DNA of 64,000 bases from Bacilli bacterium. Lineage in GTDB: Bacteria; Bacillota_I; Bacilli_A; RF39; UBA660. The notes below the pieces were generated by a model. The model was given only the letters and a program-made list of their open reading frames with translations. It did not search any database and had not been told where the DNA came from. Where the stretch lies: the NCBI GenBank assembly GCA_017409025.1, contig JAFQTN010000014.1:46628-110627 (forward strand). The letters run 5' to 3'. A program made the translations under genes and the position numbers. Below are positions 3,827 through 52,021 of the stretch, in pieces. Position 1 is the first letter of the stretch, and each line of letters begins with the position of its first letter.

Positions 3827-4179
3827 TGGAGACATATGTATATGCATTTTTATTCTGTGGTTTTGTATGTATGATAAGTCAAGTTATTTTGGATAATACA
3901 AAACTTACTCCCGGTCATGTAACTAGTTTATTTGTAGTAATTGGTGCATTTTTAGACTTAGCTGGTATTTATGATAAGATAGTACTATATTGTGGTGCTG
4001 GAGCAATTATTCCAATTACTTCTTTTGGACATTTACTTATTCATGGAGCAATGGATGTGGCGGCAGAAAATGGAATAATGGGTCTTGCACTTGGAATATT
4101 TGATTTAACTTCGGCAGGTATTAGTGTAGCAGTAGTATGTGCATTTATATTAGCATTAATTTTTAAACCTAAACATTAG
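3826..4179 (+). CDS. spoVAE: stage V sporulation protein AE (AEb-type)
   Basis: 117-aa membrane protein, start overlaps the spoVAD stop (ATAATG). Sequence is similar to the SpoVAC/AEb family. Confidence 0.85.
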   Translation: METYVYAFLFCGFVCMISQVILDNTKLTPGHVTSLFVVIGAFLDLAGIYDKIVLYCGAGAIIPITSFGHLLIHGAMDVAAENGIMGLALGIFDLTSAGISVAVVCAFILALIFKPKH

Positions 4180-4247
4180 TGTAAAGTAAGTATTTGATAA
4201 TTGTACATTTATCTATTTATATGTTATTATATTTATAGGTGATGTGT

Positions 4248-4844
4248 ATGAAAAATAAACTTAGTTTTTATGGAATAATAATACTTATTGGTTTATTTGT
4301 TGCTTTTTATTTTATTGCTTCATTATTTTTAGAACATATGAGACATGATGAAGAAATTAATGAAGAGAATATGGCTATAACAGAAAATGATAAAAATTAT
4401 AATGATGAGATTGAGATAGTTAACAATTTATATCAAAACGTTAGAATACTATATGATGTTGTTAATAGTAAGTTTAAAGTAGATCAAGATGACATTATAG
4501 TAATTAATGATATTACTTATAAAAAAATAACTAATTTTGATGAAGTTACTAGTAATTTGTTTACTTTAAATGGTCTTAATAAATACATAAGTGATTTAGG
4601 CAGTTATTTTGCAATAACAAATGATTTATATTATTTAGCAGGTAATTTAGTAAGTTATCAAACTTATTATTTTAGGGGAGATGATACTAAAATATATATA
4701 TTAGATGTTAGTGACAATGTGATAAATGCTATAATATATGAGAAATGGACTAGTAATAATAAGAATACTTTGGCTACGATAAGAGTAATTAAAGAAGAAA
4801 AAAGTTGGTTAATAGATGATATATCAATATTAGTTAGTGAATAG
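4248..4844 (+). CDS. membrane-anchored hypothetical protein
   Basis: N-terminal TM helix. AGGTGA RBS favours the ATG at 4248 over the GTG at 4239. No recognisable motif. Confidence 0.55.
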   Translation: MKNKLSFYGIIILIGLFVAFYFIASLFLEHMRHDEEINEENMAITENDKNYNDEIEIVNNLYQNVRILYDVVNSKFKVDQDDIIVINDITYKKITNFDEVTSNLFTLNGLNKYISDLGSYFAITNDLYYLAGNLVSYQTYYFRGDDTKIYILDVSDNVINAIIYEKWTSNNKNTLATIRVIKEEKSWLIDDISILVSE

Positions 4845-4891
4845 ATATTTTAAAGAACGCTTAGGTGTTCTTTTTAAATGTATATATAAAT

Positions 4892-4920
4892 TTGACAAAA
4901 ACAAACAAATGTGCTATTAT
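4892..4920 (+). promoter_or_regulatory. sigma-A promoter (extended -10) of the mTERF-like gene array
   Basis: TTGACA (4892-4897), 17-nt spacer, TGcTATTAT (4912-4920). Confidence 0.6.
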
Positions 4921-4947
4921 ATTTAGCCGATTAAGGGGATGGTTTGG

Positions 4948-5742
4948 ATGATAGTAGAAAAAATGCTAAAACTAGGTTTTACTGAAGAACAGATTAATAC
5001 GATTTTAACTAATTATGCTATTTTAAGGTTGAGAAAGAGTAATGTTTCAAAGTTGGTAGGTGAAATGTTAGATTTTTTTAAAAACTATGGATATAGTGAT
5101 GAAGATATAGTTAAAATGAGTAAATTACATCCACAAATATACGGTTATAGTGCTACTAATATAAGTCAAAAAATACTATTTTTAGAGAATCTTGGATATG
5201 CAAAAGTAGAAATAATTAAAATGACAAAAAGTTGTCCTCAAATATTTAGTTTGTCTACAGAAAATATTATAAATAAGTTAGAGGTTATGAAAGGATTAGG
5301 ATATAAAATTTCTAATTTATTAAATATGATTTCTAGATTTCCTCAAATATTAACATTATCTAATGAGTATATAGTAAATAAATTTAATGATTTGATAGGA
5401 TTAGGTTATACGAATAAAGAGGTAATTAAGATAACAATTAAACTGCCACAAATTTGGAGTTTAACAATGGAAAATATTACTACTAAGAAAGAATTTTATG
5501 ATTCTATAGGAATATCTAGTTTTATATTAGTTAAAGCTAATTTACTTATGCAAAGTGTAGAATTATCATATGCAAGATATATGTTTTATATGTCTATAGG
5601 TAAAACAATAGATAGTAATAATTATATGGATATTTTTTGTGGTCAAAAAAGATTTGAAACATTATATGGTAAAACTAATAAAGATTTAATAGAATTATAC
5701 CCATATGATAAAGAAGAAATTCTAAAAAGAATAAAGAAGTAG
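4948..5742 (+). CDS. mTERF-like repeat protein, paralog 1
   Basis: Tandem ~35-aa units LGY[ST]xxE[IV]xKMxxxxPQI[FW]xLSxENI. AAGGGGA RBS favours the ATG at 4948 (track start 4939). C-terminal KKEFYDSIG...SYARYMF module shared with paralogs 2 and 3. Confidence 0.6.
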   Translation: MIVEKMLKLGFTEEQINTILTNYAILRLRKSNVSKLVGEMLDFFKNYGYSDEDIVKMSKLHPQIYGYSATNISQKILFLENLGYAKVEIIKMTKSCPQIFSLSTENIINKLEVMKGLGYKISNLLNMISRFPQILTLSNEYIVNKFNDLIGLGYTNKEVIKITIKLPQIWSLTMENITTKKEFYDSIGISSFILVKANLLMQSVELSYARYMFYMSIGKTIDSNNYMDIFCGQKRFETLYGKTNKDLIELYPYDKEEILKRIKK

Positions 5743-5751
5743 GTGGTTATG

Positions 5752-6960
5752 ATGTTATATGAATATATGTATAGTTTAGGTTATAAGAAAGAGCAAATTG
5801 ATAAAATATTAAATTATTGTGTTAATGTTAGAAGATATCGTATAGATGGATTATATGAAAAGGCAAAAGTAATATTTCCTTATTTTATTAGTTTAGGTTA
5901 TACGAATAAAGAGGTTATTAAAATATCTTTAGAGTGTATATCATTATATACTCGTAGTTTAGATATTATTAAGAGAAAATTTGATTGTCTGTATGAACTT
6001 GGTTATACTAAAGAAGAAGTTATTAGAATGATATATTCATTTCCGAGAATATTTAATTTAAAGAAGGAAACTATTAATAATAAAATATTATTAATTATGA
6101 ATTTAGGTTTTAGTAGAAAAGAAACATTAGACATTATAAAGACAGATCCTGGTATATTGGGATATAGTTTTATTAATCTTAAAAATAAATTTAATTATTT
6201 ATTATCCTTAGGTTATTCTCAAAAAGAATTAATTAAAATGATTAATCAAAATCCAATAATACTGGTTTCTAATAAACCTTCAAAAAGTATAGATGTTATT
6301 TGTAAATTTGGATTTACTCGTGAGAAAGCAATTAAGATGTGTAAAAAGTGTCCTAATCTTATGGTAATAACTGAAGAATATATAAATGAGAAAATTAAGA
6401 ATATGATGGACTTAGGTTATACTTATCCTCAGGTTATTAAAATGCATAATAAGTTTTCTAAGCTTTTTACTTATGGTATAGATAATATTATAGAAAGATT
6501 TAATAAACTTATAGAATTAGGATATAGTAAAAAACAAGTTATTATAATGACGGTAGTTTCACCTGCTATATTTAGTTATAGTATATCTAGTATAGTGAAA
6601 AGAATTGATGATTTAATTAGTTTAGGATTTACAAAGGAAGAAGTAATTAATATGACTGTATCACTTCCGTCATTATATGGATTTAGTATAGATAATATTC
6701 GTGAGAAAAAAGAATTTTATGATTCAATAGGATTAAGTAGATTATTTGTAGTAGATCCTAAACAACTTATTCAAGGTATAAAATTAACTTATGCTAGATA
6801 CATGTTTTTAAAATCAATAGGAATGGATATTGATATGAATAATTATATATTATTATTTTGGGGACAAAAAGCATTTAAATGTATGTTTGGAATAGATAAT
6901 GAGGAAGTTATTCAGCAGTATGGTAATAAAGAAATAGATATTAAAGTTAGGACTAAATAG
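5752..6960 (+). CDS. mTERF-like repeat protein, paralog 2
   Basis: About 9 repeat units, e.g. LGYTKEEVIRMIYSFPRIFNLKKETINNKILLIMN and LGFSRKETLDIIKTDPGILGYSFINLKNKFNYLLS. Start is uncertain (GTG 5743, ATG 5749 or 5752). Confidence 0.6.
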   Translation: MLYEYMYSLGYKKEQIDKILNYCVNVRRYRIDGLYEKAKVIFPYFISLGYTNKEVIKISLECISLYTRSLDIIKRKFDCLYELGYTKEEVIRMIYSFPRIFNLKKETINNKILLIMNLGFSRKETLDIIKTDPGILGYSFINLKNKFNYLLSLGYSQKELIKMINQNPIILVSNKPSKSIDVICKFGFTREKAIKMCKKCPNLMVITEEYINEKIKNMMDLGYTYPQVIKMHNKFSKLFTYGIDNIIERFNKLIELGYSKKQVIIMTVVSPAIFSYSISSIVKRIDDLISLGFTKEEVINMTVSLPSLYGFSIDNIREKKEFYDSIGLSRLFVVDPKQLIQGIKLTYARYMFLKSIGMDIDMNNYILLFWGQKAFKCMFGIDNEEVIQQYGNKEIDIKVRTK

Positions 6961-6969
6961 GTGATATGT

Positions 6970-8079
6970 ATGTTAGTAGAAAAAATGAAAGAATTAGGTT
7001 ATACTGATAGTGATATTGAGAAAATAATTAATCAATATACGGCTGCAAATAATACTAAAAATAATTTGTTTAAGAGACTTGAAGGAAATTATAAAATGCT
7101 TATATCTTTAGGTTTAAGTAGAAATGAAGCTATTAAAATAACTAAAGAATTTCCGTTACTTTTGGCATATTTAGATACTTCTATTGAAAAGAAAATATAT
7201 AATATAAAAGAATTAGGGTATGAAATGAGTGCTATTAAAAAAATGATAATAGCATTTCCTCAAATTTTAAGTTTAGATATTGCTAATATGGAAAAGAAAA
7301 TAGAAGATATGAAAAAAATAGGTTATAGCAATAAGGCGGTATTAAAAATAACTACTGCCTGTCCACATGTATTTGGGTTAAATATTAATAATATTAAAAA
7401 TATGCTAATTAAATTAACAGAATTAGGTTTTAAATATGAAGAGGTATTAAAAATAACTACAAAATATCCTGAAATATTTGGTTTATCTATCGAAAATATC
7501 AGTAAGAAAATAGATGATATGATTACTTTGGGATATAATAGATTATTAGTTATAAAAATGATAAAGATTTATCCTAATATACTAGGTTTAAATATTAATA
7601 ATATGAAAAAGAAATTAAAAGATATGAAAAAATTAGAGTATACTAATAAGGATTTGTTAATTATAACTAGTACATGTCCACAATTATTTGGATATACTAT
7701 TGAAAGAATAAAAAAGAGAATAAACGATATTATGGATTTGGGGTATTCTTATCAAGAAGTAATTAATATGTCTAAAAAATTTCCTCAAATATTTGGTCTT
7801 AGTATTGATGCTATTAAAGTAAAGAAAGAATTTTATGATTCAATTGGGTTAGAAAGGCTGTTTATTGATTATCCAAGAAATTTAATGCAAAGTGTAGAAT
7901 TATCATATGCAAGATATATGTTTTATAAATCTATAGGGATAGAAATAAATAAAGATAATTTTAGAATGTTATTTGAAGATCAAAAAAGATTTAAAAAAAG
8001 GTATAATTATTCTAATGATGATTTAATTAAAATGTATAATTATAATGAAGAAAAAGCTAAAAGTAGGACGTTAGATTAA
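6970..8079 (+). CDS. mTERF-like repeat protein, paralog 3
   Basis: Same repeat (LGYEMSAIKKMIIAFPQILSLDIANMEKKIEDMKK...). AGGTGA RBS favours the ATG at 6970 (track GTG 6961). Confidence 0.6.
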   Translation: MLVEKMKELGYTDSDIEKIINQYTAANNTKNNLFKRLEGNYKMLISLGLSRNEAIKITKEFPLLLAYLDTSIEKKIYNIKELGYEMSAIKKMIIAFPQILSLDIANMEKKIEDMKKIGYSNKAVLKITTACPHVFGLNINNIKNMLIKLTELGFKYEEVLKITTKYPEIFGLSIENISKKIDDMITLGYNRLLVIKMIKIYPNILGLNINNMKKKLKDMKKLEYTNKDLLIITSTCPQLFGYTIERIKKRINDIMDLGYSYQEVINMSKKFPQIFGLSIDAIKVKKEFYDSIGLERLFIDYPRNLMQSVELSYARYMFYKSIGIEINKDNFRMLFEDQKRFKKRYNYSNDDLIKMYNYNEEKAKSRTLD

Positions 8080-8096
8080 TAATATATTATTTAAAT

Positions 8097-8504
8097 GTGG
8101 GTGAAAATGTGGAAGAATTATTTAGTTTAGGTATTAGTGAAGAAGATATGAAAAATATTTTAGAACAAAATTCAAATTTGTTTAATATATCTAGTGATTT
8201 AGTGAAAGAAAAGATAGATATACTTAAATATGTTAATTGCGATCAAAGACATATAAAGAACATTATTGTTAGTAATCCAGAATATTTAGAAAGAGAATCT
8301 AGTGATATACTTAAATTAATTAAATATTTAAAGGATAATGGATTTACACTTTTAAATTTATTGTTTGATTCTAATCCTTATTTTTTAAATTATGATGTTT
8401 TTGAGATAAGAGATTATGTAAATAAAAGAATAGATGATGGATTAGAGTTAGATGATATAGTGGATGAAGTAGAAAATAATCCATATATCATAGATGAAGT
8501 TTAG
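8097..8504 (+). CDS. short mTERF-like repeat protein, paralog 4
   Basis: 135 aa with 3-4 degenerate units (LGISEEDMKNILEQNSNLFNISSDLVKEKIDILK...). Start codon is uncertain. Confidence 0.45.
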   Translation: MGENVEELFSLGISEEDMKNILEQNSNLFNISSDLVKEKIDILKYVNCDQRHIKNIIVSNPEYLERESSDILKLIKYLKDNGFTLLNLLFDSNPYFLNYDVFEIRDYVNKRIDDGLELDDIVDEVENNPYIIDEV

Positions 8505-8516
8505 ATATAGACTAGT

Positions 8517-8546
8517 GGAACTACTAAAAAATGTAGTTCTTTTTCT
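8517..8546 (+). terminator. rho-independent terminator
   Basis: GAACTAC / GTAGTTC stem followed by TTTTTC. Confidence 0.6.
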
Positions 8547-8609
8547 TTATAAATATATAGGTTTATGCTATTATATATGTAAGAGATGTTATAATTCTGG
8601 AGGATAAAA

Positions 8610-9839
8610 ATGAAAAAATGGTATAAATTAGATAATGTTGGTAAATTTTATGCATCTATTGCGAATGCAAAAGTACCTAAAGTATTTAGATATTCCGTTA
8701 ATTTATTTGAAAATGTTGATGAAAATATATTACAATTAGCATTAAATAAAACAATAGAAATATATCCTAATTTTAATGTTAATTTAAAAAAGGGAATGTT
8801 TTGGTATTATCTAGATGAGACGAATAAGAAAAATAAAGTAACAAAAGAAAATTTACCTATTTGTTTTAAAATATATAATAATTCAGATGATTTTTTATAT
8901 AGGGTTTCATACTATAAAAGAAAAATTAATTTTGAGGTATCTCATATATTATCTGATGGTAGAGGTAGTGTAGAGTTTTTTAAACTATTATTAACAAATT
9001 ATATATCAATTAAATATGATCTTAAAATAGATACTAGTAAGGATAATAAGAGTCAATTAGAGAAAGCAGAAGATAGTTTTGATAAATACTATAAGAAAAT
9101 GAAATTATCTAAAAATAAAAAGACAGAAACATATATATATAAGGGAAAAAAATATCGTAATCAAACAAGATATTTAGAAGCATATATGAATGTATCGGAT
9201 GTTTTAAGTTTAGCACATAAATATAAAACAACTCTAACAGCTTTTTTAGTATCTATATTAATTTATGCACATAGAGATGAATTAAAACTATCAGAATTAA
9301 ATAAAAGTATTAAGATAGATTTGCCGGTAGATTTAAGACCTTATTTTAAATCATATTCATCGATGAATTTTTTTGGTGTAACTACGATTTCTTATAAATT
9401 TAAGAGTAAAGAAGATACATTAGAAGATATTATAAAAGAAGTAAATTTACAGTTTAAAGAACAAATAAATGCTAAGAAAATAGCTGAGAGAGTAAATTTA
9501 ATGGTTTCATTTGAGAAGAATTGGTTTTGTAGATTTGTTCCTATTAATATTAAAAATATCTTTTTAAATATAGCTGATAAAATTGCATCTCAACAAAGTA
9601 CAACTTGTTTATCTAATATTGGAATAATTAAATTAGATAAAGAATTAGAAGATAAAATAGATTCTATTAGTGTTTTAACATCTACGTATGGTTTTCGATT
9701 TACAACATGTACATTTAAAGATAAATTATGTATAGGAATATCAAATAATTATATTAATAATGATATTATTAAGAATTTATGTTGTTATTTATCAGAACAG
9801 GGTATTCAGATAAAAATGAATGTAAGTGAGGTTGGATAA
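8610..9839 (+). CDS. condensation/acyltransferase-like protein with HxxxDG motif
   Basis: EVSHILSDGRGSVEFF contains the H-x3-D-G catalytic motif of the condensation, WS/DGAT and PapA5 acyltransferase superfamily. Size (~410 aa) fits. GGAGGA RBS. Confidence 0.55.
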   Translation: MKKWYKLDNVGKFYASIANAKVPKVFRYSVNLFENVDENILQLALNKTIEIYPNFNVNLKKGMFWYYLDETNKKNKVTKENLPICFKIYNNSDDFLYRVSYYKRKINFEVSHILSDGRGSVEFFKLLLTNYISIKYDLKIDTSKDNKSQLEKAEDSFDKYYKKMKLSKNKKTETYIYKGKKYRNQTRYLEAYMNVSDVLSLAHKYKTTLTAFLVSILIYAHRDELKLSELNKSIKIDLPVDLRPYFKSYSSMNFFGVTTISYKFKSKEDTLEDIIKEVNLQFKEQINAKKIAERVNLMVSFEKNWFCRFVPINIKNIFLNIADKIASQQSTTCLSNIGIIKLDKELEDKIDSISVLTSTYGFRFTTCTFKDKLCIGISNNYINNDIIKNLCCYLSEQGIQIKMNVSEVG

Positions 9840-10495
9840 TGAAAAAGTGTAATAGTTGTAACATAGAATTTAATATTAATGATAAAATATGTCCGTTATG
9901 TCAAAATATATTAATAGGTGAATGTAATGATTTAATGTTTCCTACGAATGCTAGATATAAAACAAATTCATTAATAAAGAAAATAGTTTTGTTTTCGTCA
10001 ATAACAATATTTTTAATATTTGCTTTTATTGAATTTCTTGTAGTTAATAATTTAACAATATCATCATATATAGGAGTTGGATTAATAACTAATTATGTAA
10101 TAATGTCTTTAATATTAAAGAATTATCATAATATATATAAGGTATTTGGGAAATATGGATTAACAATAATAGTGTTATTAATAATATGGTATCTTTTGAT
10201 AAAGAGTCCAGTAATTACTAATTATATAATCCCATCAGTATGTATATTTGAATTATTATTTAATTTTATTGTTGCTTTAATACTTAGAAAGAATTATTCA
10301 ATAAAGTATTCAAGTCAAATAATTATGAATATTTTTTTATTGATTTTACCAATTATATTTGTTTGGTTAAAATTAACTACTAATAATATAATGTCATATA
10401 TATGTTGTTTATTATCAGTAATATCAATAACTGGTTTATTAATATTTTCATATAATGATATTAAGGAAGAATTAAGTAAATTATTTAATGTATAG
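9839..10495 (+). CDS. zinc-ribbon membrane protein
   Basis: N-terminal CNSC...CPLC ribbon followed by ~5 TM helices. Start overlaps the upstream stop (TAATG). Confidence 0.6.
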   Translation: MKKCNSCNIEFNINDKICPLCQNILIGECNDLMFPTNARYKTNSLIKKIVLFSSITIFLIFAFIEFLVVNNLTISSYIGVGLITNYVIMSLILKNYHNIYKVFGKYGLTIIVLLIIWYLLIKSPVITNYIIPSVCIFELLFNFIVALILRKNYSIKYSSQIIMNIFLLILPIIFVWLKLTTNNIMSYICCLLSVISITGLLIFSYNDIKEELSKLFNV

Positions 10496-10580: not shown

Positions 10581-11909
10581 ATGGAAGAAAAATTAATAGG
10601 AAAATTATATCAAATGGTTATTGAAAAGAAAGAACTTACATATGAGAATTTAATAGAAGAAGGTTTTAGTAATGAAGATATATCTTTGTTAATTTCTAAT
10701 AGGATTATTAGATTAATTGGTGATAATTTGTATCAATTATATAAGGTAGATAGATTTCATCAATATGGAATAAAATTGCTTATTCAAGGAAAAAATATAG
10801 AAGCTACTAAATGTTTTAAAATATGTCATAAATTAATGCCAAATGGAAGAAGAATAAATCTTCAAATGTTAATTTTAGAAGTAATATATGAAAACTATGA
10901 AGGAGCATATCGTATTTATGAGACTATTGAAAATAATAGTATTCCTAAGAATACTTTAGATAATAATTTATATTTATATTTATTAAATTTATTATGTCCT
11001 ATTAAAAAGTATTCTGATAGAGTAAGAGATTTTATGCATGGAGATATTGTATTTGAAAGTGCTACTTGTAATAAAGATGAAAATCAAATAAGAGAGGCTA
11101 TATTTAAAAGTAAATTTGTATATGCTCGTAAATTAGTTAATGATTTAATTTCTAAAAAAATACCAGAATATTCAATTAAAAATGAATTAATAAAAGTATT
11201 ATTAAATAAAGTAATTGAACATGAAAGAAATTATAAAAATAAATTATTAAAATTAGCTCAAGAAGAACAATATAGTGTAATTAATAAAATGCTTTTAGAA
11301 AGAGCAAATACTAAAAGATTAAGTAAATTAGAAAATTATATTTTATTAGTTTCTGGGACAATCATTGAAATATTAAAAACTAAAAAGATTCCAGAGAAAA
11401 GAGAAATAGTTACATATGATATGTACAAAGCATTAATATCTAATAATTTTAAACTTGCACAAGAAATAAACGATGATCATCATACTATATTGGGAACAAA
11501 TAAAGAAGATGATGTTTTACATATTTTATTAATAAAGATTAATGAGATAATTAAGCAAATTGAATTATCTTATGAAGAAGAGAGGAAAATAGAATTAGAT
11601 AAGCAAATAATGTCTTCTGAAGAATTAGCGTACTATATAAAGAGTGAAAATATTTCTTTAGAAGATGCTAGTAAAAAATTAGGAATAATAAAAGAACAAA
11701 TGATTATGATTAGATTGGTGTATATAAGAGATTATTATGTTCTAGGTGATATAGAGTTAGCTGATAAGTTGCTAGAGGAAATAGAGACTAAAGAAAAAAT
11801 AACACCACTAATTAGACTGTTTATTGATAAAATTAAAACTTATAAAGAAATTAAAACTGAAATTAAAGTAAGGAAAAGAATAAAAGAAAATAATGAAGGA
11901 GAAAACTAA
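10581..11909 (+). CDS. wHTH/helical-repeat paralog A (short form)
   Basis: N-terminal EEGFSNEDISLLISNRIIRLIGDNLYQL (AbiEi-like winged helix). Shared internal motifs NNLYLYLL, IIEILKTKKIP and NNFKLAQEIN. Shared C-terminal module EELAYYIKSENISLEDA...IRLVYIRDYY. Confidence 0.55.
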   Translation: MEEKLIGKLYQMVIEKKELTYENLIEEGFSNEDISLLISNRIIRLIGDNLYQLYKVDRFHQYGIKLLIQGKNIEATKCFKICHKLMPNGRRINLQMLILEVIYENYEGAYRIYETIENNSIPKNTLDNNLYLYLLNLLCPIKKYSDRVRDFMHGDIVFESATCNKDENQIREAIFKSKFVYARKLVNDLISKKIPEYSIKNELIKVLLNKVIEHERNYKNKLLKLAQEEQYSVINKMLLERANTKRLSKLENYILLVSGTIIEILKTKKIPEKREIVTYDMYKALISNNFKLAQEINDDHHTILGTNKEDDVLHILLIKINEIIKQIELSYEEERKIELDKQIMSSEELAYYIKSENISLEDASKKLGIIKEQMIMIRLVYIRDYYVLGDIELADKLLEEIETKEKITPLIRLFIDKIKTYKEIKTEIKVRKRIKENNEGEN

Positions 11910-14314
11910 TGGTAACTAGTGAACATTTAGATAAGATTTGTGAATACACATTAAAAGATAGAATAATCACTACTAAAGTATTACATAGTTTTGGATTAAA
12001 TAGTCATGATATAAATAAATTATTAGAACAAAATATATTAAGAAGAGTAAATATAGGTCAATACGAATTAATATCTACTGATACGTTATATGAATATGCG
12101 AATAAGATTCGTAAGGAAAACCCTTATGATTCAATTAAAGGTAATTTATTGGTTTATGAAATGGAACCTAATCATGAATATAATAATTTAAGATTATTAA
12201 CTTTTTATACTAGAAAAAGAAATTATGAAAAGGCTTTCCAGATATTAGACATATTATATCTAAATAATGAAAATGATAAATATAATGATATATACTTATA
12301 TATATTAAGTGCTATGACAGTAGTTCCAGAAAGATATAAAGATAAAGTAAAGAAATTAACTGAAGTTAATTTAAAAACTAAATATTATAGTAGTAATGAA
12401 GACGAAAATGCGATGTTATTTAGAATAACTATTGGTAAATACGTACCGGCAATTTATTCATTAAATAAAACAAAACAATATATTTTAAATGAACATGATG
12501 TAGCACTAAGATTATTGTTATCTGAAGCAATAGAATTAGATAATGAAAATAGTGAATTATTACTTAGATATGCTAAAGAAGAAAGATTTAATGATATTAA
12601 GGAATTATTAACAAGTAAAACTACTGTTAATAAGCAAATGGATTTATATATGTTATATGTAGTAAATACTATTTTGAGTATATTAAAAACAAAAAAATTA
12701 CCTATACAAACTACTCAAAATACGAATAATTTACATAGCGCTATTTATACAAATAATTTTGAATTAGCATATAAACTGAATACAGAATATTTAACAAAAT
12801 ATAATCTTAATCTAGTAAATCCATTAACTATTTTATTAAATAAGGTTAATGAACTTATAAATAAAATAAGAAAAGAACAAAGTATAGAATCAAATAAAGA
12901 AGAAAGTATAAATATAGAAGATGAGAATGTTACATTATCTAGTTTAATTATTGAATTATTACATAATAATATTGAAATTTTTACTGGGTTATTAAAAAAA
13001 TATTTAAAAGAAAAACAATTAGAAGAATATGAATTTCTAATAATGAAATTAGTAAAAATAGATATAATAAACAATGATAGTAGTTATTTAAAGACAATAA
13101 GTGTTTTAAGCAAATTAGATAATTCTGTATATAATTTTGATGTATCTTATTATGTTAGACAATTCTATCAAGAATTATCAAATATAGAAATAGCTAAGAT
13201 TTATTTTGAAATAATATCTAAATATTATCCAGAATCTACGGTTATTATAGCTAATTTAAAAAATACTTTAGAAAATGAGATTGCTAAGAATAATATTTCT
13301 AATGAGGAAACTGAAAATGTAGTTTCTTTAGAAAATAAAGAACAAGATGAAAAAGAAATTAATGAGTTAAATGAATTAGTATTAAGAAGAATACATGAAG
13401 CTAAGAGTAATAATCAAACTATAGTTATTTTTGAAAATCAATCAGTAAACATGAGGAGAATAATTTATTCAATATTGGGTAGTAGTCATGGTTTGGATAT
13501 GTTTACTATAGGAGAAGAGCCTAAAACAGTTGTAGTAAGAATTTTAAATATTAAACAAGAAGAAATAATATATAAAGAATATCTTCAAGATTTATTTATA
13601 AATGCAAAAATAAAAAATTATCAAGAATGTATTCGTATAGGGAATATATTATTAAAATCTAAAGGATTTAAACCTTTAGGTGCAAAAGATCCAAGACCGG
13701 TATTTGATATTGTTGGACAATCTTATTTAAAATTAAATAAAATAGAAGAAGCAATTATATTTTTGACTATTGTAACTGAATTAAGTAAAACGATGGGAGA
13801 TTCTAAGAAAGATCGTAGTGTTTTAATTAATATGTTAAAAGAAAGATTGAATAAGACTACTGAGAAAAATTCTAGTGAAAATGAATTTAAAGAAGATATA
13901 GTAGTTAATGAAATAGTTTCTGAAAAGGTAGAACCTATTGCTGAGGGATCAATTGAAGAAGCAAAACCAGTAGAAAATATTCAGATAACTGAAATAGAAC
14001 AAGAAGAAAATAAACCTAGGGAAATAAAAGATTTAGAAGAAATTGCTTACTTTATAAAAGAGACTAATATATCTTTAGAAGATGCTAAGAATAGTTATAA
14101 TTTAACTGATGAAGATATCTTAATGATTAGATTAATATATGTAAGAGATTATTATGTAGATGGAATGTATTCTTTAGGTGATTCTAAATTAAAAGAAATA
14201 GAAAAAATTCAAAATAAGACACCAAGAGTAATCATATTTATTAAAGAATTAAAGATTAATAAAAGATTTTATAAAGATAGATTAGAATTCCATACTAAAA
14301 AAAGACAAAAATAA
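11909..14314 (+). CDS. wHTH/helical-repeat/TPR paralog B
   Basis: 801 aa, start overlaps the upstream stop. Same N- and C-terminal modules plus a central insert and a TPR-like segment (YQECIRIGNILL...GQSYLKLNKIEEAI). Confidence 0.55.
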   Translation: MVTSEHLDKICEYTLKDRIITTKVLHSFGLNSHDINKLLEQNILRRVNIGQYELISTDTLYEYANKIRKENPYDSIKGNLLVYEMEPNHEYNNLRLLTFYTRKRNYEKAFQILDILYLNNENDKYNDIYLYILSAMTVVPERYKDKVKKLTEVNLKTKYYSSNEDENAMLFRITIGKYVPAIYSLNKTKQYILNEHDVALRLLLSEAIELDNENSELLLRYAKEERFNDIKELLTSKTTVNKQMDLYMLYVVNTILSILKTKKLPIQTTQNTNNLHSAIYTNNFELAYKLNTEYLTKYNLNLVNPLTILLNKVNELINKIRKEQSIESNKEESINIEDENVTLSSLIIELLHNNIEIFTGLLKKYLKEKQLEEYEFLIMKLVKIDIINNDSSYLKTISVLSKLDNSVYNFDVSYYVRQFYQELSNIEIAKIYFEIISKYYPESTVIIANLKNTLENEIAKNNISNEETENVVSLENKEQDEKEINELNELVLRRIHEAKSNNQTIVIFENQSVNMRRIIYSILGSSHGLDMFTIGEEPKTVVVRILNIKQEEIIYKEYLQDLFINAKIKNYQECIRIGNILLKSKGFKPLGAKDPRPVFDIVGQSYLKLNKIEEAIIFLTIVTELSKTMGDSKKDRSVLINMLKERLNKTTEKNSSENEFKEDIVVNEIVSEKVEPIAEGSIEEAKPVENIQITEIEQEENKPREIKDLEEIAYFIKETNISLEDAKNSYNLTDEDILMIRLIYVRDYYVDGMYSLGDSKLKEIEKIQNKTPRVIIFIKELKINKRFYKDRLEFHTKKRQK

Positions 14315-14333
14315 AATAATTTAAGGGGAATTT

Positions 14334-16313
14334 ATGGAAGAAAGGGAAAAATTACTAGAATTATTAAATAGTTTTCTTTTAGAAAATAATATTCAAAAAG
14401 TATATGAAATATTTAAATTGTTAGATCAAACTGATAATTTAGAATTAAAAAAAGAAAATAATTTATATTTATATTTGTTAAGTTTTATAGATGAAGTGCC
14501 AAGTGAATATATAAATAGAGTACGTAGTATTAAATATGAAGATTTACTTATAAATTCTGATAGTTGTAGATATACAGAAATAAGCGTGCAAAATAGAATT
14601 AGAATGAGTATTTTTAGAGCAAAATTTCATCAAACAAAAGAAATGATTGAAAATACTTCAAAAGATGATTTTGTAAATGGAATAGAAAGAGAACTAATTC
14701 TGACGTTAGTAAGAATGGCAAATGAAAAAGAAATTATTTTAAGAAAACGTATTGAATATTTAACTAAAAATAAAAAGTATGAAGAACTAGTATCATATTT
14801 AGAAAATCGAAATAGAATAAGAAAATTAAATTTATATGAAGCATATATTTATGCTATAACAGCATCAATAATAAGGATAATGAAAACTAATAAAATTCCT
14901 AAAGTGTTAGATCAAAATCCAGATGATATAAAAAAAGCAATAATGGGATATAACTTTCAGATGGCATTAATTTTTAATAGAAGAGATATAGCATTAAAAT
15001 ATGAAGATAGTAAGTATGTTATAAATTTATTATTAGTTGAAATAAATAAATTAATAGATAATATAATAAGAGATGCTAAACAAAAAATAGAAGCTGAAAA
15101 GTCGAAAATAACAACTATCTTAAAAAAAATTGATGAAGAATTATTAAAAGGAAATATAGAAGAAGCAACTGATAGAATTAAAGAATACTTAAAGTATATA
15201 AATAAAGAAAATTATCTTTATTTAATAGAAAATTTAATTAAAGTATCTATATTAAATAATGATTCATCATATCATGAAACTATTTCTTTTCTAAATTCAA
15301 TGAATAGTTCAAATTATCAATTTGATATGAAATATTTCTATAGTCAATTTCATAATAGTATAAATAGAAATAAATTAGATATAGCAGAAATATATTTAAA
15401 TATAATAAAGCATTATCAACCAGAATTTAAAGAAGACATGACTTTAGAACAGTTAGAAAAAATATCATCTGATTTAGAACATAATAAAGAGGAATTATCA
15501 TATTTAATGAATGAATTAAATGTCTTAAAAGATGGAAACGAATATATGAAAATTATAAAGGGAATTCCACAAAAGAGAAGAAAGATTTTAATAAGATTAG
15601 CTGGTAGTATCGAAGAATTGTCTGTTGGTAGTGCTGGGGTAAAAGAACCTAAAAATTTAGTAATAAGACGTATAAATAAAGAATTAAAAACAGATAATGA
15701 AAGAAAATTAATAGATGATGCCTTAAAACTATATCTTAGTAAAGAATACAATATTGCTCTTATGATATATTTAAGATTATTAACTAGTATGGAATTAGCA
15801 AATAGCAAAATATGTGAAATGATAGGTTTATGTTATCTTCATTTAAATGAATTAGATGAATCTTTAAAATATTTAAGATATTCTAAACAATTACAGAAAA
15901 AGTTTTTAACAAATAGATTTGGTATTGATAAAATAATAGATTTATTAGAACAAGAACCTAATGATGGTGTAAAACAAAAAATAGATACATTATTAACTAA
16001 GTATGATGATGAAGTAATTAATTTTAATATTCAAAAATTAGAAGAAATAGCATCTTATATGAAAGAGAATAATATGACTTTTGAAGAAGGTATAGAAAAG
16101 TTTGAGTTAGTACCAATGCAAGTATTGATAATAAAATTAATTTATGCTAAATATTACTATATGGAGGGTATGACATTAAGTGCTGATAAATTATTACAGG
16201 AAGTAGAAAAAACTAAAAATAAATCACAGCCAGTAGTTACACTTTTAAATGAAGTAAGAGAAAAGAAAATCTTTTATCAAAATCAAAAAGATGGATATAC
16301 ACGTAAAAGATAA
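14334..16313 (+). CDS. helical-repeat/TPR paralog C
   Basis: 659 aa. It shares NNLYLYLLS, IIRIMKTNKIP, the NNDSSY module, the TPR-like segment and the C-terminal module. The N-terminal wHTH is not evident. Confidence 0.55.
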   Translation: MEEREKLLELLNSFLLENNIQKVYEIFKLLDQTDNLELKKENNLYLYLLSFIDEVPSEYINRVRSIKYEDLLINSDSCRYTEISVQNRIRMSIFRAKFHQTKEMIENTSKDDFVNGIERELILTLVRMANEKEIILRKRIEYLTKNKKYEELVSYLENRNRIRKLNLYEAYIYAITASIIRIMKTNKIPKVLDQNPDDIKKAIMGYNFQMALIFNRRDIALKYEDSKYVINLLLVEINKLIDNIIRDAKQKIEAEKSKITTILKKIDEELLKGNIEEATDRIKEYLKYINKENYLYLIENLIKVSILNNDSSYHETISFLNSMNSSNYQFDMKYFYSQFHNSINRNKLDIAEIYLNIIKHYQPEFKEDMTLEQLEKISSDLEHNKEELSYLMNELNVLKDGNEYMKIIKGIPQKRRKILIRLAGSIEELSVGSAGVKEPKNLVIRRINKELKTDNERKLIDDALKLYLSKEYNIALMIYLRLLTSMELANSKICEMIGLCYLHLNELDESLKYLRYSKQLQKKFLTNRFGIDKIIDLLEQEPNDGVKQKIDTLLTKYDDEVINFNIQKLEEIASYMKENNMTFEEGIEKFELVPMQVLIIKLIYAKYYYMEGMTLSADKLLQEVEKTKNKSQPVVTLLNEVREKKIFYQNQKDGYTRKR

Positions 16314-16355
16314 AAACAATAGTAAGAAAATTATAATTTAATCTAGGAGGAATAT

Positions 16356-18650
16356 ATGATAACGAATGAATTATTAGATTTCATTTATGCTAAAAATCTA
16401 AATAGGGAAACAATTACAGCTAAAGAACTACTAAAACTAGGTTTAAATTATAGTGATATAAGCAAATTAGTAGAGAATAATGTGATAAAAAGAATAAAAA
16501 GAGGAATATATGGATTAGATACATATGATGATTTATTTAATTATGTAATATATTTAATAAATCAAGAAAAATATTATAAAGCATATAAAATATTATTAAA
16601 ATGTCATGAAGAAAATCCCGATAACTTAACAGTTTTAGAATATTTATTTTTATGTAGTATTAATACAAAAACAAGTACTGAAATAAAATGGAATATATTA
16701 GAAAAAATAATTAAAATAAGTACAGATAAAAGAAAAAATCTAAATAATGTGTATTTATATTTTTTAACATATAAATATCTTGGTGTTAAAAAAGAATATA
16801 TTGAAATTATTAAATCATTGAAATATGGAGATTTAAAATTGTTTGATGATACTTCAATTAATTTACAAAATTCAACAGCTTATAATATAGAAAAAGTAAT
16901 AGATATCATTGGGAATATTGAAGAAAATGAGTATTTAACAACTTATCAGAAAAAAATTATTAAAGAACTTATGCAGAGGTCTTTAAAAGTAAAAGAAATA
17001 CTTAATAAAAAACTTTTACAATTAGTAGAAGAAGAAAATTATCAAAAAATAATAGATATTTTAAAGCCAAGAAAAGGATATATTCATTTAGATTTTGAAC
17101 ACGAGGTAATTTTATTGTTAGCAAACAAAATAATCGAAATAATATCTAAAGATCAAATACCTAGTCCAATTGTTAAAGAAAATTGTAGAAAAAATATGCT
17201 TGCAATGATAGAAAATAATTATTTTGAAAAAGCCTATAGTTTTAGTTCTCAGTGCTTAAAAACAAGTAATAAAGTAGAGGATATAATAATAAATTTAATG
17301 TTAAACAAAATCATAAAAATTACATCAAAAGAAAGTCAAAGTAAAAGAATTAACGAAGTATTTAGATTTTCTCTTCGTAACCCTAATGTCGAAAATATTA
17401 TTTTAAATTTAATAGATCAAAATATAGAAGGTGCAATAACAGAAACGAAAAACTATTTAAGACAATTAGGTGAAGAACAATATGAATATTTAGTACTTAA
17501 TTTATTTGATATATATTATAAAGATGGTGAAAATAATTATCAAAACTTAATTATAATATTAACAGAAATTAGTCAACATGAATATGTTTATAATATAACA
17601 ACATTTTTAGAATTATTTTATAAAAGTCTAAATTCAAATAAAATAGAAGAAGCAGAAACATATATGAAGATAATAGAAAAATATACTCCTAAGGTAGTTA
17701 ATATTATTGGTAGTCTAGAAAAAGATATCGAAAAAGCAAAAAATAGAACAAATGAAGAAAAACAATTTATCAAAAATTATTTATTAGCTAAAGTATCAAA
17801 GATGAAAGAAAATAACATATCAGCAATCATTCTTGATCCGGTTATGCCACATAGTTTAAGGACTACTATATATAAAACTATAAAATGTAGTCCAATTAAA
17901 GAATTAAGAGCCTTTAGTATTGGTGAAGAACCAAAATATATAGTATTAAGATATTTAAATCCAAATAATAATGATAAATTATATCAACAACCTGATTATC
18001 AAGAATTATATGTAAAGAAACAATATCAAGAATGTATAGATATAATTAAAAGTTTATTAGAAAATCCTCGATACGGTGGTTATAATGCAGCGATATATGC
18101 TTATTTAGGATTATCATATTATCATACTAATAATTTAGAAGAAGCTATTAAATATATAAGAATTGCCAATGGGTTAAACAAAGAAACTAATCTTATATAT
18201 GAAGAGGCATATGATTTTGAAGAGTTACTATCACAAATGAATATACAATTTAAAAATACGGAAGTTAGTCCTGAAGACGAAACATTTCAAATGTTAGTAA
18301 CTAATGCGTTAAGAAGAAGTTCAATAAATATAACTTCTAGAAAAGAAAAAAATATATATCAAGAATTAGAAGAATTTGCTTATTATCTAAAAGAAGAAAA
18401 GATTAATTTAAGTGAAGCTTATTCTAAATACTATCTTTCTGAAGAGGATATTCAAATAATAACTTTAATATATGTAAAAGATTATTATACAGTAGGTATG
18501 TATAAAGAAGGGGATTCGTTATTACATCAAGTAGAAAAGAATAAAAATAAAACAGCATATGTAAGGGAATTAATTGATGAAACAAGAAAAAATAAACTAT
18601 TTTATAAGCATAGAATAGGAATATATACACGTAAGAAAATACTAAATTAA
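16356..18650 (+). CDS. wHTH/helical-repeat/TPR paralog D
   Basis: 764 aa. ITAKELLKLGLNYSDISKLVENNVIKRIKRGIYGL wHTH. TPR-like YQECIDIIKSLL...LGLSYYHTNNLEEAI. C-terminal EEFAYYLKEEKINLSEA...ITLIYVKDYY. Confidence 0.55.
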   Translation: MITNELLDFIYAKNLNRETITAKELLKLGLNYSDISKLVENNVIKRIKRGIYGLDTYDDLFNYVIYLINQEKYYKAYKILLKCHEENPDNLTVLEYLFLCSINTKTSTEIKWNILEKIIKISTDKRKNLNNVYLYFLTYKYLGVKKEYIEIIKSLKYGDLKLFDDTSINLQNSTAYNIEKVIDIIGNIEENEYLTTYQKKIIKELMQRSLKVKEILNKKLLQLVEEENYQKIIDILKPRKGYIHLDFEHEVILLLANKIIEIISKDQIPSPIVKENCRKNMLAMIENNYFEKAYSFSSQCLKTSNKVEDIIINLMLNKIIKITSKESQSKRINEVFRFSLRNPNVENIILNLIDQNIEGAITETKNYLRQLGEEQYEYLVLNLFDIYYKDGENNYQNLIIILTEISQHEYVYNITTFLELFYKSLNSNKIEEAETYMKIIEKYTPKVVNIIGSLEKDIEKAKNRTNEEKQFIKNYLLAKVSKMKENNISAIILDPVMPHSLRTTIYKTIKCSPIKELRAFSIGEEPKYIVLRYLNPNNNDKLYQQPDYQELYVKKQYQECIDIIKSLLENPRYGGYNAAIYAYLGLSYYHTNNLEEAIKYIRIANGLNKETNLIYEEAYDFEELLSQMNIQFKNTEVSPEDETFQMLVTNALRRSSINITSRKEKNIYQELEEFAYYLKEEKINLSEAYSKYYLSEEDIQIITLIYVKDYYTVGMYKEGDSLLHQVEKNKNKTAYVRELIDETRKNKLFYKHRIGIYTRKKILN

Positions 18651-32352: not shown

Positions 32353-32429
32353 TGGCGTCCTCAAGAGGATTTGAACCTCCGACCCCCGCCTTAGGAGGGC
32401 GGTGCTCTATCCAGCTGAGCTATGAGGAC
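32353..32429 (-). tRNA. tRNA-Arg (anticodon CCU)
   Basis: Reverse complement GTCCTCATAGCTCAGCTGGATAGAGCACCGCCCTCCTAAGGCGGGGGTCGGAGGTTCAAATCCTCTTGAGGACGCCA folds as a cloverleaf. It has a 7-bp acceptor stem, GCTC/GAGC D stem, CCGCC/GGCGG anticodon stem with loop CTCCTAA, a T arm with TTCAAAT and an encoded CCA. Confidence 0.9.
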
Positions 32430-33987: not shown

Positions 33988-34023
33988 ATTTTGAACAATA
34001 GTTTGCTTTTTAGGTAAAAAATG

Positions 34024-34052
34024 TTGACAAAATATAGCATTTATGCTATTAT
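34024..34052 (+). promoter_or_regulatory. sigma-A promoter (extended -10)
   Basis: TTGACA (34024-34029), 17-nt spacer, TGcTATTAT (34044-34052). Confidence 0.6.
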
Positions 34053-34083
34053 ATTAACCCGACATTGAAAGGGGATATAAAAA

Positions 34084-51826: not shown

Positions 51827-51831
51827 TAAAA

Positions 51832-52009: not shown

Positions 52010-52021
52010 ACATTTAGGCAA

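What the first reader, a model, noticed from the sequence alone, without database searches (positions are those of the whole stretch)
4939..8504. Tandem array of four bacterial genes built from mTERF-like repeats
Four consecutive same-strand genes behind one strong promoter consist almost entirely of a ~33-36-aa unit. Examples are LGYTKEEVIRMIYSFPRIFNLKKETINNKILLIMN, LGFSRKETLDIIKTDPGILGYSFINLKNKFNYLLS, LGYSKKQVIIMTVVSPAIFSYSISSIVKRIDDLIS and LGYSYQEVINMSKKFPQIFGLSIDAIKVKKEFYDS. The consensus is LG[YF][ST]-x2-[EQ]-[VI]-x-K-[MI]-x4-P-x-[IL]-[FL]-x-[LY]-S-x2-N-[IL]-x2-K. To my eye this is the mTERF motif (mitochondrial transcription termination factor repeat, Pfam PF02536 / SMART SM00733). Plant mTERF proteins have units such as LGFSxxxIxxIVxxxPQLLxxSxExxLxPKxxFL. 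That family is characterised as nucleic-acid-binding solenoids of mitochondria and chloroplasts, and I know of no characterised bacterial member. Three paralogs also share a ~70-aa C-terminal module (KKEFYDSIG...L.YARYMF..SIG...N...F..QK.F). Four-fold amplification next to a sporulation operon suggests a lineage-specific nucleic-acid-binding function.
Basis: partly seen in the sequence, partly recalled or inferred. Interest (0 to 1): 0.75.

Follow-up and report, generated by a model that had tools for sequence, protein, structure and literature searches.

The report
Bacterial mTERF-repeat (pTERF-type) gene operon
An uncultured low-GC gut bacterium carries one operon with three DNA-binding-type mTERF repeat proteins and a small acidic mTERF-like partner; this bacterial branch of a "mitochondrial" family was first described in 2024, so the find is real but not a first.

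Summary
Four abutting + strand genes (4948-8504) lie between a near-consensus sigma-A-type promoter and a hairpin terminator. All four hit Pfam mTERF PF02536 (E 1e-25, 7e-41, 5e-39, 2e-9). Units are strictly 35 aa (5, 9, 8 and about 3.5 per protein). AlphaFold models (pLDDT 95) match DNA-bound human MTERF1 best.

The shared ~78-aa C-terminal module is the mTERF family's own C-terminal cap. It aligns with the C-terminus of MTERF1.

The claim of no characterised bacterial member is outdated. A 2024 NAR paper named such proteins pTERF: 35-aa tandem units, Bacillota gut MAGs, nanomolar sequence-specific dsDNA binding.

The array is not four equal paralogs. It holds three basic, capped, divergent "L" proteins and one acidic, capless 131-aa "S" protein. 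S-like genes adjoin L genes in 32 of the 37 fetched loci (one a second copy of this scaffold). There is exactly one S per array of 1-5 L, and S is better conserved than L. That pairing is not mentioned in the paper.

The family is restricted to gut and rumen low-GC Bacillota MAGs. Its nearest outside relatives look plant-type. The link to sporulation genes is not conserved.

Most likely function is sequence-specific DNA binding modulated by S. The in vivo role is unknown.

The parts
4892..4920 (+). Promoter-like site: -35 TTGACA, 17-nt spacer, TG-extended -10 TATTAT (sigma-A type)
   Evidence: 11 of 12 matches with TG, the best site in 4100-9000. Sequence. It is preceded by a weak hairpin AAAGAAC/GTTCTTT at about 4852-4873, just after the upstream gene's stop codon (read; not called by the scan).
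4948..5742 (+). L1 (T1): 264-aa basic mTERF-repeat protein, N-terminal cap unit plus 4 canonical 35-aa units plus C-terminal cap
   Evidence: PF02536 E 1.3e-25. Units at nt 4972-5505. pI 9.2, net charge +8. Gene call of 264 aa. Mechanical ORF starts at 4939.
5506..5742 (+). C-terminal cap of L1 (IGISS...LSYARYMF...NYMDIF...KRFETLYG...)
   Evidence: A profile of this module aligns with MTERF1 residues 226-320.
5749..6960 (+). L2 (T2): 403-aa basic mTERF-repeat protein, 9 units plus C-terminal cap (cap at nt 6727-6960)
   Evidence: PF02536 E 7.3e-41. Units. pI 9.3, net +19. Its ORF abuts L1 with no gap. Mechanical ORF starts at 5743.
6970..8079 (+). L3 (T3): 369-aa basic mTERF-repeat protein, 8 units plus C-terminal cap (cap at nt 7843-8079); contains an internal 3-unit (315-nt) block duplication
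   Evidence: PF02536 E 4.5e-39. AF2 pLDDT 95.4, pTM 0.87. Foldseek top hit is MTERF1-DNA, E 3.9e-9, TM 0.60/0.68. Self-match of nt 148-522 to 463-837 at 69%. Mechanical ORF starts at 6961.
8109..8504 (+). S (T4): 131-aa acidic, capless mTERF-like protein; 3 full units plus the first two helices of a fourth; lacks the basic ladder
   Evidence: PF02536 E 1.7e-9. pI 4.2, net -17. AF2 pLDDT 95.0. Foldseek hits MTERF3 and MTERF1 at TMq 0.80-0.83. Its family is uniformly about 131 aa and 45-81% identical. It adjoins L genes in 32 of 37 loci. Mechanical ORF starts at 8097.
8517..8550 (+). Intrinsic-terminator-like hairpin plus T-run that closes the operon
   Evidence: 8-pair stem, the only terminator-like site in 4100-9000 (0.3 expected from shuffles). 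Sequence.

Best explanation
This is a four-gene operon of a bacterial branch of the mTERF superfamily, very probably the family published in 2024 as pTERF. L1, L2 and L3 are basic superhelical solenoids. Each is built from an N-terminal cap unit, 4-8 canonical 35-aa three-helix units and a conserved C-terminal cap. Most likely each wraps double-stranded DNA. A ladder of recurring lysines (unit positions 5, 10, 13, 27, 29) would contact the backbone. The variable residues flanking the invariant proline (positions 14, 15, 17) and the order of units would set a different target sequence for each paralog. Bound at their sites they would act as repressors, activators or transcription roadblocks. 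The fourth product, S, is a conserved acidic mTERF-like mini-solenoid that has lost the basic ladder. It most likely binds a conserved part of every L protein (the cap is the obvious candidate) and modulates or couples their activity. Shown here: homology, fold, repeat architecture, cap homology, operon structure, L-S linkage, distribution. Inferred: DNA as the ligand (by analogy to pTERF1/2 and MTERF1), the specificity positions, the L-S contact and the regulatory outcome.
For: Homology and fold: PF02536 hits of E 1e-25 to 7e-41. phmmer to MTERF1 chains gives E 6e-8. The T3 model has pLDDT 95.4 and its top 16 PDB fold hits are all mTERF proteins, best to DNA-bound MTERF1. The cap profile aligns with the MTERF1 C-terminus at E 2.4e-10. 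Charge: L proteins have pI 9.2-9.4 and S has pI 4.2. Unit logo from 753 units: P16 in 92%, K29 in 97%, basic ladder, highest entropy at positions 14, 15 and 17. Published biochemistry: pTERF1 binds ACTNNNAGTC with Kd 1.87 nM. pTERF2 binds a different motif. Both have tandem 35-aa units, 3-11 per protein, and come from Bacillota MAGs from gut and rumen. Those are the same sources as our relatives, including RGIG MAGs. Paralogs are 34-39% identical, which fits diverged specificities. L-S linkage: S is present in 32 of 37 loci, one per array of 1-5 L genes, often overlapping by 4 or 17 nt. It persists although the array's chromosomal position changes. S is far better conserved than L.
Against: No binding data exist for these proteins, and their target sites are unknown. 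The pTERF1 and pTERF2 sequences could not be obtained, so family identity rests on shared features. The paper states that pTERF1 lacks the conserved mTERF proline and shows no obvious sequence similarity to mTERFs. These proteins keep the proline and are detectably similar to MTERF1, so they may form a different subgroup. Several eukaryotic mTERFs bind RNA or ribosomal particles rather than DNA (fold hits to mitoribosome-bound MTERF4). No L-S fusion protein was found to support a physical contact. No repeated candidate target motif was seen in the 64-kb window.
Confidence: 0.6

Rival explanations
1. The L proteins are RNA-binding factors for rRNA or ribosome biogenesis, RNA processing or intron splicing. 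This would parallel MTERF3, MTERF4 and plant mTERF4/mTERF15. S would be an assembly partner.
For: Fold hits include MTERF4 bound to mitoribosome assembly intermediates and ciliate and algal mitoribosome mTERFs. Some related arrays lie near der/engA (6 loci) or a SpoU-type methyltransferase (4 loci), and one is fused to cmk. Plant mTERFs acting in group II intron splicing are documented (PMC4005652, listed).
Against: The only biochemically tested bacterial mTERF-like proteins bind dsDNA with nanomolar Kd. The best structural match is DNA-bound MTERF1. Apart from S, no neighbour is conserved; each neighbour family occurs in 7 loci or fewer of 37 and reflects local synteny.
Confidence: 0.2
2. These are protein-protein scaffolds that bind no nucleic acid. 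L and S solenoids would assemble with each other or with other proteins.
For: S is acidic and lacks the basic ladder. Helical repeat folds often mediate protein binding. Weak sub-threshold UBA-like matches occur.
Against: L proteins carry net +8 to +19 with lysines recurring at fixed unit positions. Every characterised mTERF-fold protein binds nucleic acid. The UBA and RuvA_C hits mostly have no stretch passing on its own, and look like generic short three-helix similarity.
Confidence: 0.08
3. The operon has a sporulation-specific role, as its position beside spoVA suggested to the first reader.
For: spoVAC-spoVAD-spoVAEB and cotZ lie immediately upstream. Other arrays lie in regions containing spoIIP, spoIVB-like, spoIIM or spo0A genes.
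Against: The operon has its own sigma-A-type promoter and is separated from spoVA by another gene and a hairpin. The location varies: after a pyr operon, between xseA and xseB, or fused to cmk. Relatives occur in MAGs labelled Tenericutes or Bacilli; it was not checked whether these can sporulate.
Confidence: 0.05
4. Artefact: eukaryotic (plant or host) DNA mis-assembled or mis-binned into a bacterial contig.
For: mTERF is regarded as eukaryote-only in most literature (PMC12977773). The closest outside relatives are plant-type.
Against: The genes sit inside a 140-178-kb scaffold of uniform 21-29% GC with spoVA, RNase R, 6S RNA and a tRNA. They have bacterial promoter, ribosome-binding and terminator signals and abutting ORFs. 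The same arrangement recurs in 36 independent MAG species representatives.
Confidence: 0.01

Closest known systems
pTERF family (pTERF1 = GenBank MBQ3414883.1, and pTERF2); PMC11417379, Nucleic Acids Res 2024
   Same: Prokaryotic, from gut and rumen Bacillota MAGs. Head-to-tail 35-aa units annotated as mTERF motifs. Three to eleven units per protein. Three-helix unit in AlphaFold models. This window's L proteins have 5, 9 and 8 units and come from the same kind of source.
   Different: Sequence identity to pTERF1/2 could not be checked. The paper reports no conserved proline and no obvious similarity to mTERFs for pTERF1. Here the proline is kept in 92% of units and MTERF1 is found by plain phmmer. 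The paper's text contains none of the words operon, paralog, gene cluster or genomic context, and never uses 'C-terminal' about pTERF. So paralog arrays, the S partner and the cap appear undescribed.
Human MTERF1 (PDB 3MVA, 3N6S, 5CO0), mitochondrial transcription termination factor
   Same: Same Pfam family and same fold (TM 0.60/0.68 over 318 columns). The C-terminal cap is homologous. Basic solenoid of comparable length.
   Different: Only 17-18% identity. MTERF1 repeats are irregular and interspersed, whereas these are strictly 35 aa. MTERF1 is nuclear-encoded and imported into mitochondria. No acidic mini-mTERF partner is known for it (my own knowledge).
Plant/algal-type mTERF proteins
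   Same: These are the nearest relatives outside bacteria. P0278 is 31% identical at E 2.9e-63. Turnera and Rhamnella proteins and eukaryote-like contigs are among the top 150 representatives. They share the C-terminal pattern P..L..S...L..R...L......F..RF.
   Different: They have organelle transit peptides, longer and less regular repeats, 47-49% GC contigs with sparse coding, and no S-type partner in the two loci inspected.
MTERF4-NSUN4 heterodimer (PDB 4FP9, 4FZV)
   Same: It is a precedent for an mTERF solenoid working as an obligate pair with a partner bound at its C-terminal end (established knowledge of the published structures; the chains appear as fold hits).
   Different: The partner there is an rRNA methyltransferase and the ligand is rRNA. 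Here the partner is itself a small acidic mTERF-like protein, and the contact is only inferred.
TALE, BurrH/Bat and STAR modular DNA-binding repeat proteins
   Same: This is a functional analogy: tandem 33-35-aa helical units forming a superhelix whose unit order sets DNA specificity.
   Different: Not homologous. Only weak fold matches were found (BurrH E 1.6e-3, TM 0.33/0.20; TALE 4hpz E 5.9e-3). No RVD-type code is known.

Membership tests
mTERF superfamily (Pfam PF02536) | Significant match to the family HMM above the curated gathering score | tested here: met
   90.4, 140.5, 134.6 and 37.5 bits against a cutoff of 23.1.
mTERF superfamily (Pfam PF02536) | Repeated motif of about 30-35 aa formed by two alpha-helices plus a short proline-initiated helix, stacked into a superhelical solenoid | tested here: met
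   DSSP on the models shows helices of about 10, 5 and 13 residues in every unit. Top fold hits are MTERF1, MTERF3 and MTERF4. Handedness was not computed separately.
mTERF superfamily (Pfam PF02536) | Conserved proline and hydrophobic heptad positions within the motif | tested here: met
   P16 in 92% of 753 units. Conserved L1, V8, I9, M11, I18, I23, I26 and I30.
mTERF superfamily (Pfam PF02536) | Family-type C-terminal capping region | tested here: met
   The cap profile aligns with MTERF1 residues 226-320 at E 2.4e-10. S lacks it.
mTERF superfamily (Pfam PF02536) | Nuclear-encoded and targeted to mitochondria or plastids | tested here: not met
   Encoded on a bacterial scaffold with no transit peptide. 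This is a feature of the eukaryotic members, not of the fold.
mTERF superfamily (Pfam PF02536) | Binds nucleic acid | not testable with these tools
   There is only indirect support: the basic ladder and pI.
pTERF (prokaryotic mTERF-like proteins, PMC11417379) | Prokaryotic origin, mostly Bacillota MAGs from gut or rumen | tested here: met
   The window is a metagenome scaffold with Bacillota sporulation genes. All 36 related loci are gut or rumen MAGs, several from the RGIG set that yielded pTERF1.
pTERF (prokaryotic mTERF-like proteins, PMC11417379) | Head-to-tail tandem units of 35 aa, 3-11 per protein, annotated as mTERF motifs | tested here: met
   Period of 35 aa; 5, 9 and 8 units. pTERF1 is in the paper's period-35 class TR_35_C32_2.
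pTERF (prokaryotic mTERF-like proteins, PMC11417379) | Significant sequence similarity to pTERF1 (MBQ3414883.1), pTERF2 or the Table S11 homologs | not testable with these tools
   The sequences and Table S11 are not in the held supplement. Accession numbers are not exposed by the protein collection.
pTERF (prokaryotic mTERF-like proteins, PMC11417379) | Sequence-specific dsDNA binding with nanomolar affinity | not testable with these tools
   This needs SELEX, EMSA or BLI. pTERF1's own motif is not enriched in the window (2 matches against 4.2 expected), which says nothing about L1-L3.
TALE-like repeat proteins | 33-35-aa two-helix units with repeat-variable diresidues; TALE HMM or fold match | tested here: not met
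   There is no TALE Pfam hit. Only weak fold matches were found: TM 0.33/0.20 for BurrH and 0.35/0.31 for TALE 4hpz.

The most novel reading that the evidence does not exclude
The conserved unit is a two-part system not described for any mTERF. One invariant acidic mini-mTERF (S) docks onto the conserved cap of a variable set of 1-5 DNA-reading mTERF solenoids (L). It acts as a common switch or adaptor, for example a DNA-mimicking anti-factor or a bridge to RNA polymerase. On this reading these uncultured gut Bacillota run a small, expandable, programmable DNA-binding regulator family, probably acquired from a plant-type eukaryotic mTERF.
Probability: 0.3. Interest if true: 0.7.

Novelty: new member of a known kind. 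Interest (0 to 1): 0.5.

Why it matters
mTERF proteins are still widely described as absent from prokaryotes (for example PMC12977773, 2026). This window gives a clean, fully bacterial example whose similarity to eukaryotic mTERFs runs from the repeat units through to the C-terminal cap. That makes the origin of the family (bacterium to eukaryote, or plant to gut bacterium) testable by phylogeny.

The strictly regular 35-aa units, the divergent paralogs and the published nanomolar DNA binding of pTERF1/2 make these proteins candidates for a new programmable DNA-binding scaffold. The conserved acidic S partner, if it controls binding, would be a built-in regulator that the published work did not consider.

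For the biology of the uncultured low-GC gut Bacillota that carry them, these are likely lineage-specific regulators with unknown targets.

Tried and rejected
- **NCBIfam:** no family for any of the four proteins.
- **PADLOC defence models:** no hit for L3, S or the flanking genes, apart from an AbiEi-type HTH in a downstream ORF.
- **Mobile elements:** no relatives in phage records, plasmids or IMG/VR viral contigs, so this is not a mobile-element or phage-conflict gene as far as these collections show.
- **Genome scans:** the single-protein scan of GTDB genomes found nothing. Alignment A1 was too diverse for pattern extraction. The tighter A2 worked.
- **pTERF sequences:** I tried to obtain pTERF1/2 from the paper's supplements and from cluster accessions without success.
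- **Target sites:** I looked for dispersed repeated DNA motifs and for pTERF1's motif. Neither was found or enriched.
- **L-S fusions:** none convincing.
- **Other Pfam matches:** the UBA_6, UBA, RuvA_C and CDT1 matches to the L proteins cover only short single-helix-bundle stretches, and most have no stretch passing on its own. I treated them as generic similarity.
- **Long capless hits:** I considered that these might be other bacterial phyla. Their contigs look eukaryotic instead: 47-49% GC, sparse ORFs, plant names.
- **S as a trans N-terminal cap:** I considered that S ends mid-unit in order to complete the N-terminal helix of L. L proteins already have a conserved N-terminal cap unit of their own, so this stays only a weak possibility.
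Full report
**1. What is in the sequence**

Four + strand ORFs occupy 4939-8504 exactly as reported. The metagenome gene calls for the same scaffold are 264, 403, 369 and 135 aa. Together with the Shine-Dalgarno-like sequences at the junctions, they place the likely starts at 4948, 5749 and 6970. For the fourth gene the start is probably 8109, since its family is uniformly about 131 aa.

The ORFs abut with gaps of 0, 0 and 17 nt. The best promoter-like site in 4100-9000 is TTGACA-17-TATTAT with an upstream TG at 4892-4920. The only terminator-like hairpin is at 8517-8540. A gene of unknown function and a weak hairpin separate the operon from the spoVAC-AD-AEB genes upstream.

The window is a 21-29% GC bacterial scaffold. 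It comes from an ENA metagenome assembly and also carries RNase R, a 6S RNA and a tRNA.

**2. The repeat and the mTERF claim**

All four proteins hit Pfam mTERF PF02536 well above the gathering score of 23.1 bits. The E-values are 1.3e-25, 7.3e-41, 4.5e-39 and 1.7e-9. NCBIfam has no model for them.

The unit is strictly 35 aa. L1 has a 38-aa N-terminal cap unit and 4 canonical units. L2 has 9 units and L3 has 8. The 105-nt period is also visible in the DNA at 60-71% identity.

Plain phmmer finds human MTERF1 chains at E 6e-8. The AlphaFold2 model of L3 is very confident (pLDDT 95.4, pTM 0.87). Every unit forms three helices of about 10, 5 and 13 residues. Its top 16 PDB fold matches are all mTERF proteins. 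They are led by DNA-bound MTERF1 (E 3.9e-9, TM 0.60/0.68 over 318 columns), then MTERF3, MTERF4 and mitoribosome-bound mTERFs.

**3. The C-terminal module**

The shared module of about 78 aa has the consensus K..FYDSIG...LMQSV.LSYARYMF...NY..LF...K.F.K.YG...L..KY.Y. It is present in about 170 of the 178 homologs then in hand, and in 115 of the 135 newly fetched representatives among the top 150.

A profile of the last unit plus this module aligns end to end with residues 226-320 of human MTERF1, that is its last repeats and C-terminal tail, at E 2.4e-10. Plant-type relatives end with the same pattern. The module is therefore the family's own C-terminal cap, not an added domain. Homology with eukaryotic mTERFs covers the whole architecture.

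**4. The array is 3 L + 1 S**

L1-L3 are basic (pI 9.2-9.4, net +8 to +19). They are only 34-39% identical to one another, so they are old paralogs. L3 also contains an internal 3-unit block duplication.

The fourth protein, S, is acidic (pI 4.2, net -17), lacks the cap and is only 21% identical to the L proteins. Its model (pLDDT 95.0) shows three full units followed by only the first two helices of a fourth. It also has the mTERF fold, with TMq 0.80-0.83 and rmsd 2.3-2.9 A against MTERF1 and MTERF3.

A logo from 753 units of the family shows several features:
- an almost invariant G2;
- P16 in 92% of units and K29 in 97%;
- recurring lysines at positions 5, 10, 13 and 27;
- the highest variability at positions 14, 15 and 17, around the proline.

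S has lost most of the lysine ladder.

**5. Relatives and genomic context**

A word-indexed search found 117 L-type clusters. All are at most 51% identical to L3, and almost all are unnamed metagenome proteins. An exhaustive HMMER scan of 1.84 billion representatives gave 143 hits at E up to 1e-30, 595 at up to 1e-10 and 1566 at up to 1e-3.

Among GTDB species representatives, 36 loci carry the cap motifs. All are gut or rumen MAGs from rabbit, goat, buffalo, deer, human and other sources. They are labelled Clostridia, Bacilli, Clostridium sp. CAG:433, Firmicutes, Tenericutes or, probably through mis-binning, Muribaculaceae. Locus GC is 22-31%.

Arrays of 2-5 L genes are common, and unit counts range from about 3 to 15.

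The only conserved neighbour is S. It is present in 32 of the 37 fetched loci (L001 is the same scaffold as the window). It always lies on the same strand, exactly once per array, and often overlaps an L gene by 4 or 17 nt. Of the seven loci without a detected S gene, five have the array at a contig end. The other two carry a different small ORF instead. S proteins are 45-81% identical to one another, so they are far better conserved than L proteins.

The array's chromosomal position is not conserved. It lies after spoVA here, after a pyr operon and an ABC transporter in L039, between xseA and xseB in L040, and fused to cmk in L038. The sporulation adjacency therefore carries no functional weight. 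No relatives were found in phage, plasmid or viral collections, and there were no defence-system hits.

**6. Relation to eukaryotic mTERFs**

About ten of the top 150 representatives lack the bacterial-type cap, are 500-2000 aa long and have ordinary amino-acid composition. Two are plant proteins from Turnera and Rhamnella. Two others that I inspected lie on 47-49% GC contigs with sparse tiny ORF calls. One of these contigs has three tandem mTERF ORFs, and P0278 has a transit-peptide-like N-terminus. These look eukaryotic.

P0278 is 31% identical to L3 at E 2.9e-63, against 17-18% for human MTERF1. The bacterial family occupies a narrow range of herbivore and omnivore gut Bacillota. Its nearest outside relatives are plant-type. 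Together these facts suggest a eukaryote-to-bacterium transfer. That is an inference only, and no phylogeny was made.

**7. Comparison with what is known**

Most of the mTERF literature still states that the family is absent from prokaryotes (PMC12977773). PMC11417379 (Nucleic Acids Res 2024) is the exception. It screened tandem-repeat proteins and named the 'pTERF' family, for prokaryotic mTERF-like proteins.

According to that paper:
- pTERF1 is GenBank MBQ3414883.1, in the paper's period-35 class, from a rumen 'Clostridia bacterium' MAG.
- pTERF1 binds dsDNA at ACTNNNAGTC with Kd 1.87 nM.
- pTERF2 binds a different motif.
- Members have 3-11 tandem units, and all come from MAGs, mostly Bacillota.

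Every defining feature I could test matches, so L1-L3 are very probably new members of this family. I put that at about 0.85.

Two caveats remain. The pTERF sequences were not obtainable. The paper also says that pTERF1 lacks the conserved proline and any obvious similarity to mTERFs, which is not true of the proteins here.

The paper's text contains none of the words operon, paralog, gene cluster or genomic context. It never uses 'C-terminal' about pTERF. No follow-up paper on pTERF was found. The paralog arrays, the homology of the cap to MTERF1's C-terminus and the conserved S partner therefore appear to be new observations.

**8. Mechanism**

My best reading has a confidence of about 0.6.

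Each L protein would be a sequence-specific dsDNA-binding solenoid. The lysine ladder would contact the backbone. The variable positions around the proline, together with unit order, would set specificity. The three diverged paralogs would read three different sites. They would act as repressors, activators or transcription roadblocks.

S is invariant, acidic and present once per array. It most likely binds a part shared by all L proteins. The cap is the most conserved segment, and MTERF4 binds NSUN4 at its C-terminal end (established knowledge). S would then modulate or couple L activity.

The main rival, at about 0.2, is RNA or ribosome binding, as in MTERF3, MTERF4 and plant splicing mTERFs. 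A pure protein scaffold, a sporulation-specific role and an assembly artefact are all unlikely.

**9. Verdict**

This is a real and cleanly delimited feature, and the mTERF identification is correct. It is a new member of a kind that was named and biochemically characterised in 2024, not a first bacterial mTERF. What remains interesting is the undescribed L+S architecture, the unknown in vivo role and the evolutionary origin. I score interest at 0.5.

Noticed in passing
L031:6869-7321, L039:6075-6533, L025:5968-6408, L005:8543-8986 and 11 further related loci: A third recurrent small ORF of about 146-165 aa, with no Pfam family, sits inside or next to the L/S arrays in 15 related loci. It is the only small partner in the two uncut loci that lack S. 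It is absent from this window.
   Followed up: partly
window 10581-18650: Four consecutive large ORFs (442, 801, 659 and 764 aa) just downstream are paralogs of one another (27-29% identity, E down to 1e-58). They have no Pfam or PADLOC family except an AbiEi-type HTH at the N-terminus of the 764-aa one. This is a second tandem paralog array of unknown function.
   Followed up: partly
L038:57-1823 (protein P0005, 588 aa): A full-length cytidylate kinase (PF02224, E 3e-71) is fused in frame to an L-type mTERF-repeat protein, and an S gene follows that overlaps it by 17 nt. The same protein occurs on contigs up to 296 kb, so the fusion is probably real.
   Followed up: partly
L040:5862-8298: Here two genes sit between xseA and xseB, the exonuclease VII subunits. 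One is an mTERF gene and the other is an adjacent 131-aa S-length gene with no family hit on record. An unannotated 375-aa gene precedes them. The cassette can evidently sit inside housekeeping operons.
   Followed up: no
proteins P0008, P0017, P0018, P0021 (481 aa); L027:9521-11053; L036:5855-8071: Some family members carry two C-terminal caps (for example at residues 120-200 and 395-475). They are head-to-tail fusions of two complete L proteins. The P0017 cluster has 777 member sequences, so this form is abundant.
   Followed up: partly
window 4883-4930 and 34015-34062: The operon's promoter region is 73% identical over 48 nt to another intergenic promoter-like region. Both share TTGACA, TGCTATTATAT and a downstream CCGA. 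This may be just two strong sigma-A promoters, or a shared regulatory element (family D16).
   Followed up: no
window 51829-52013 (+) and 32356-32429 (-): A 6S RNA (69.7 bits) and a single tRNA gene are present.
   Followed up: no
window 8610-10495: Immediately downstream of the terminator lie a 409-aa protein with a weak sub-threshold PapA_C (acyltransferase C-terminus) match and a DUF6320 membrane protein. They overlap by one base, so they are probably a separate two-gene unit.
   Followed up: no
proteins P0319, P0378, P0358, P0387: These are further mTERF-like subgroups with divergent or different C-termini. P0358 and P0387 have low-GC-type composition and a variant cap. P0319 and P0378 end in ...RYxRGY.... 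More than one prokaryotic mTERF lineage may exist.
   Followed up: no
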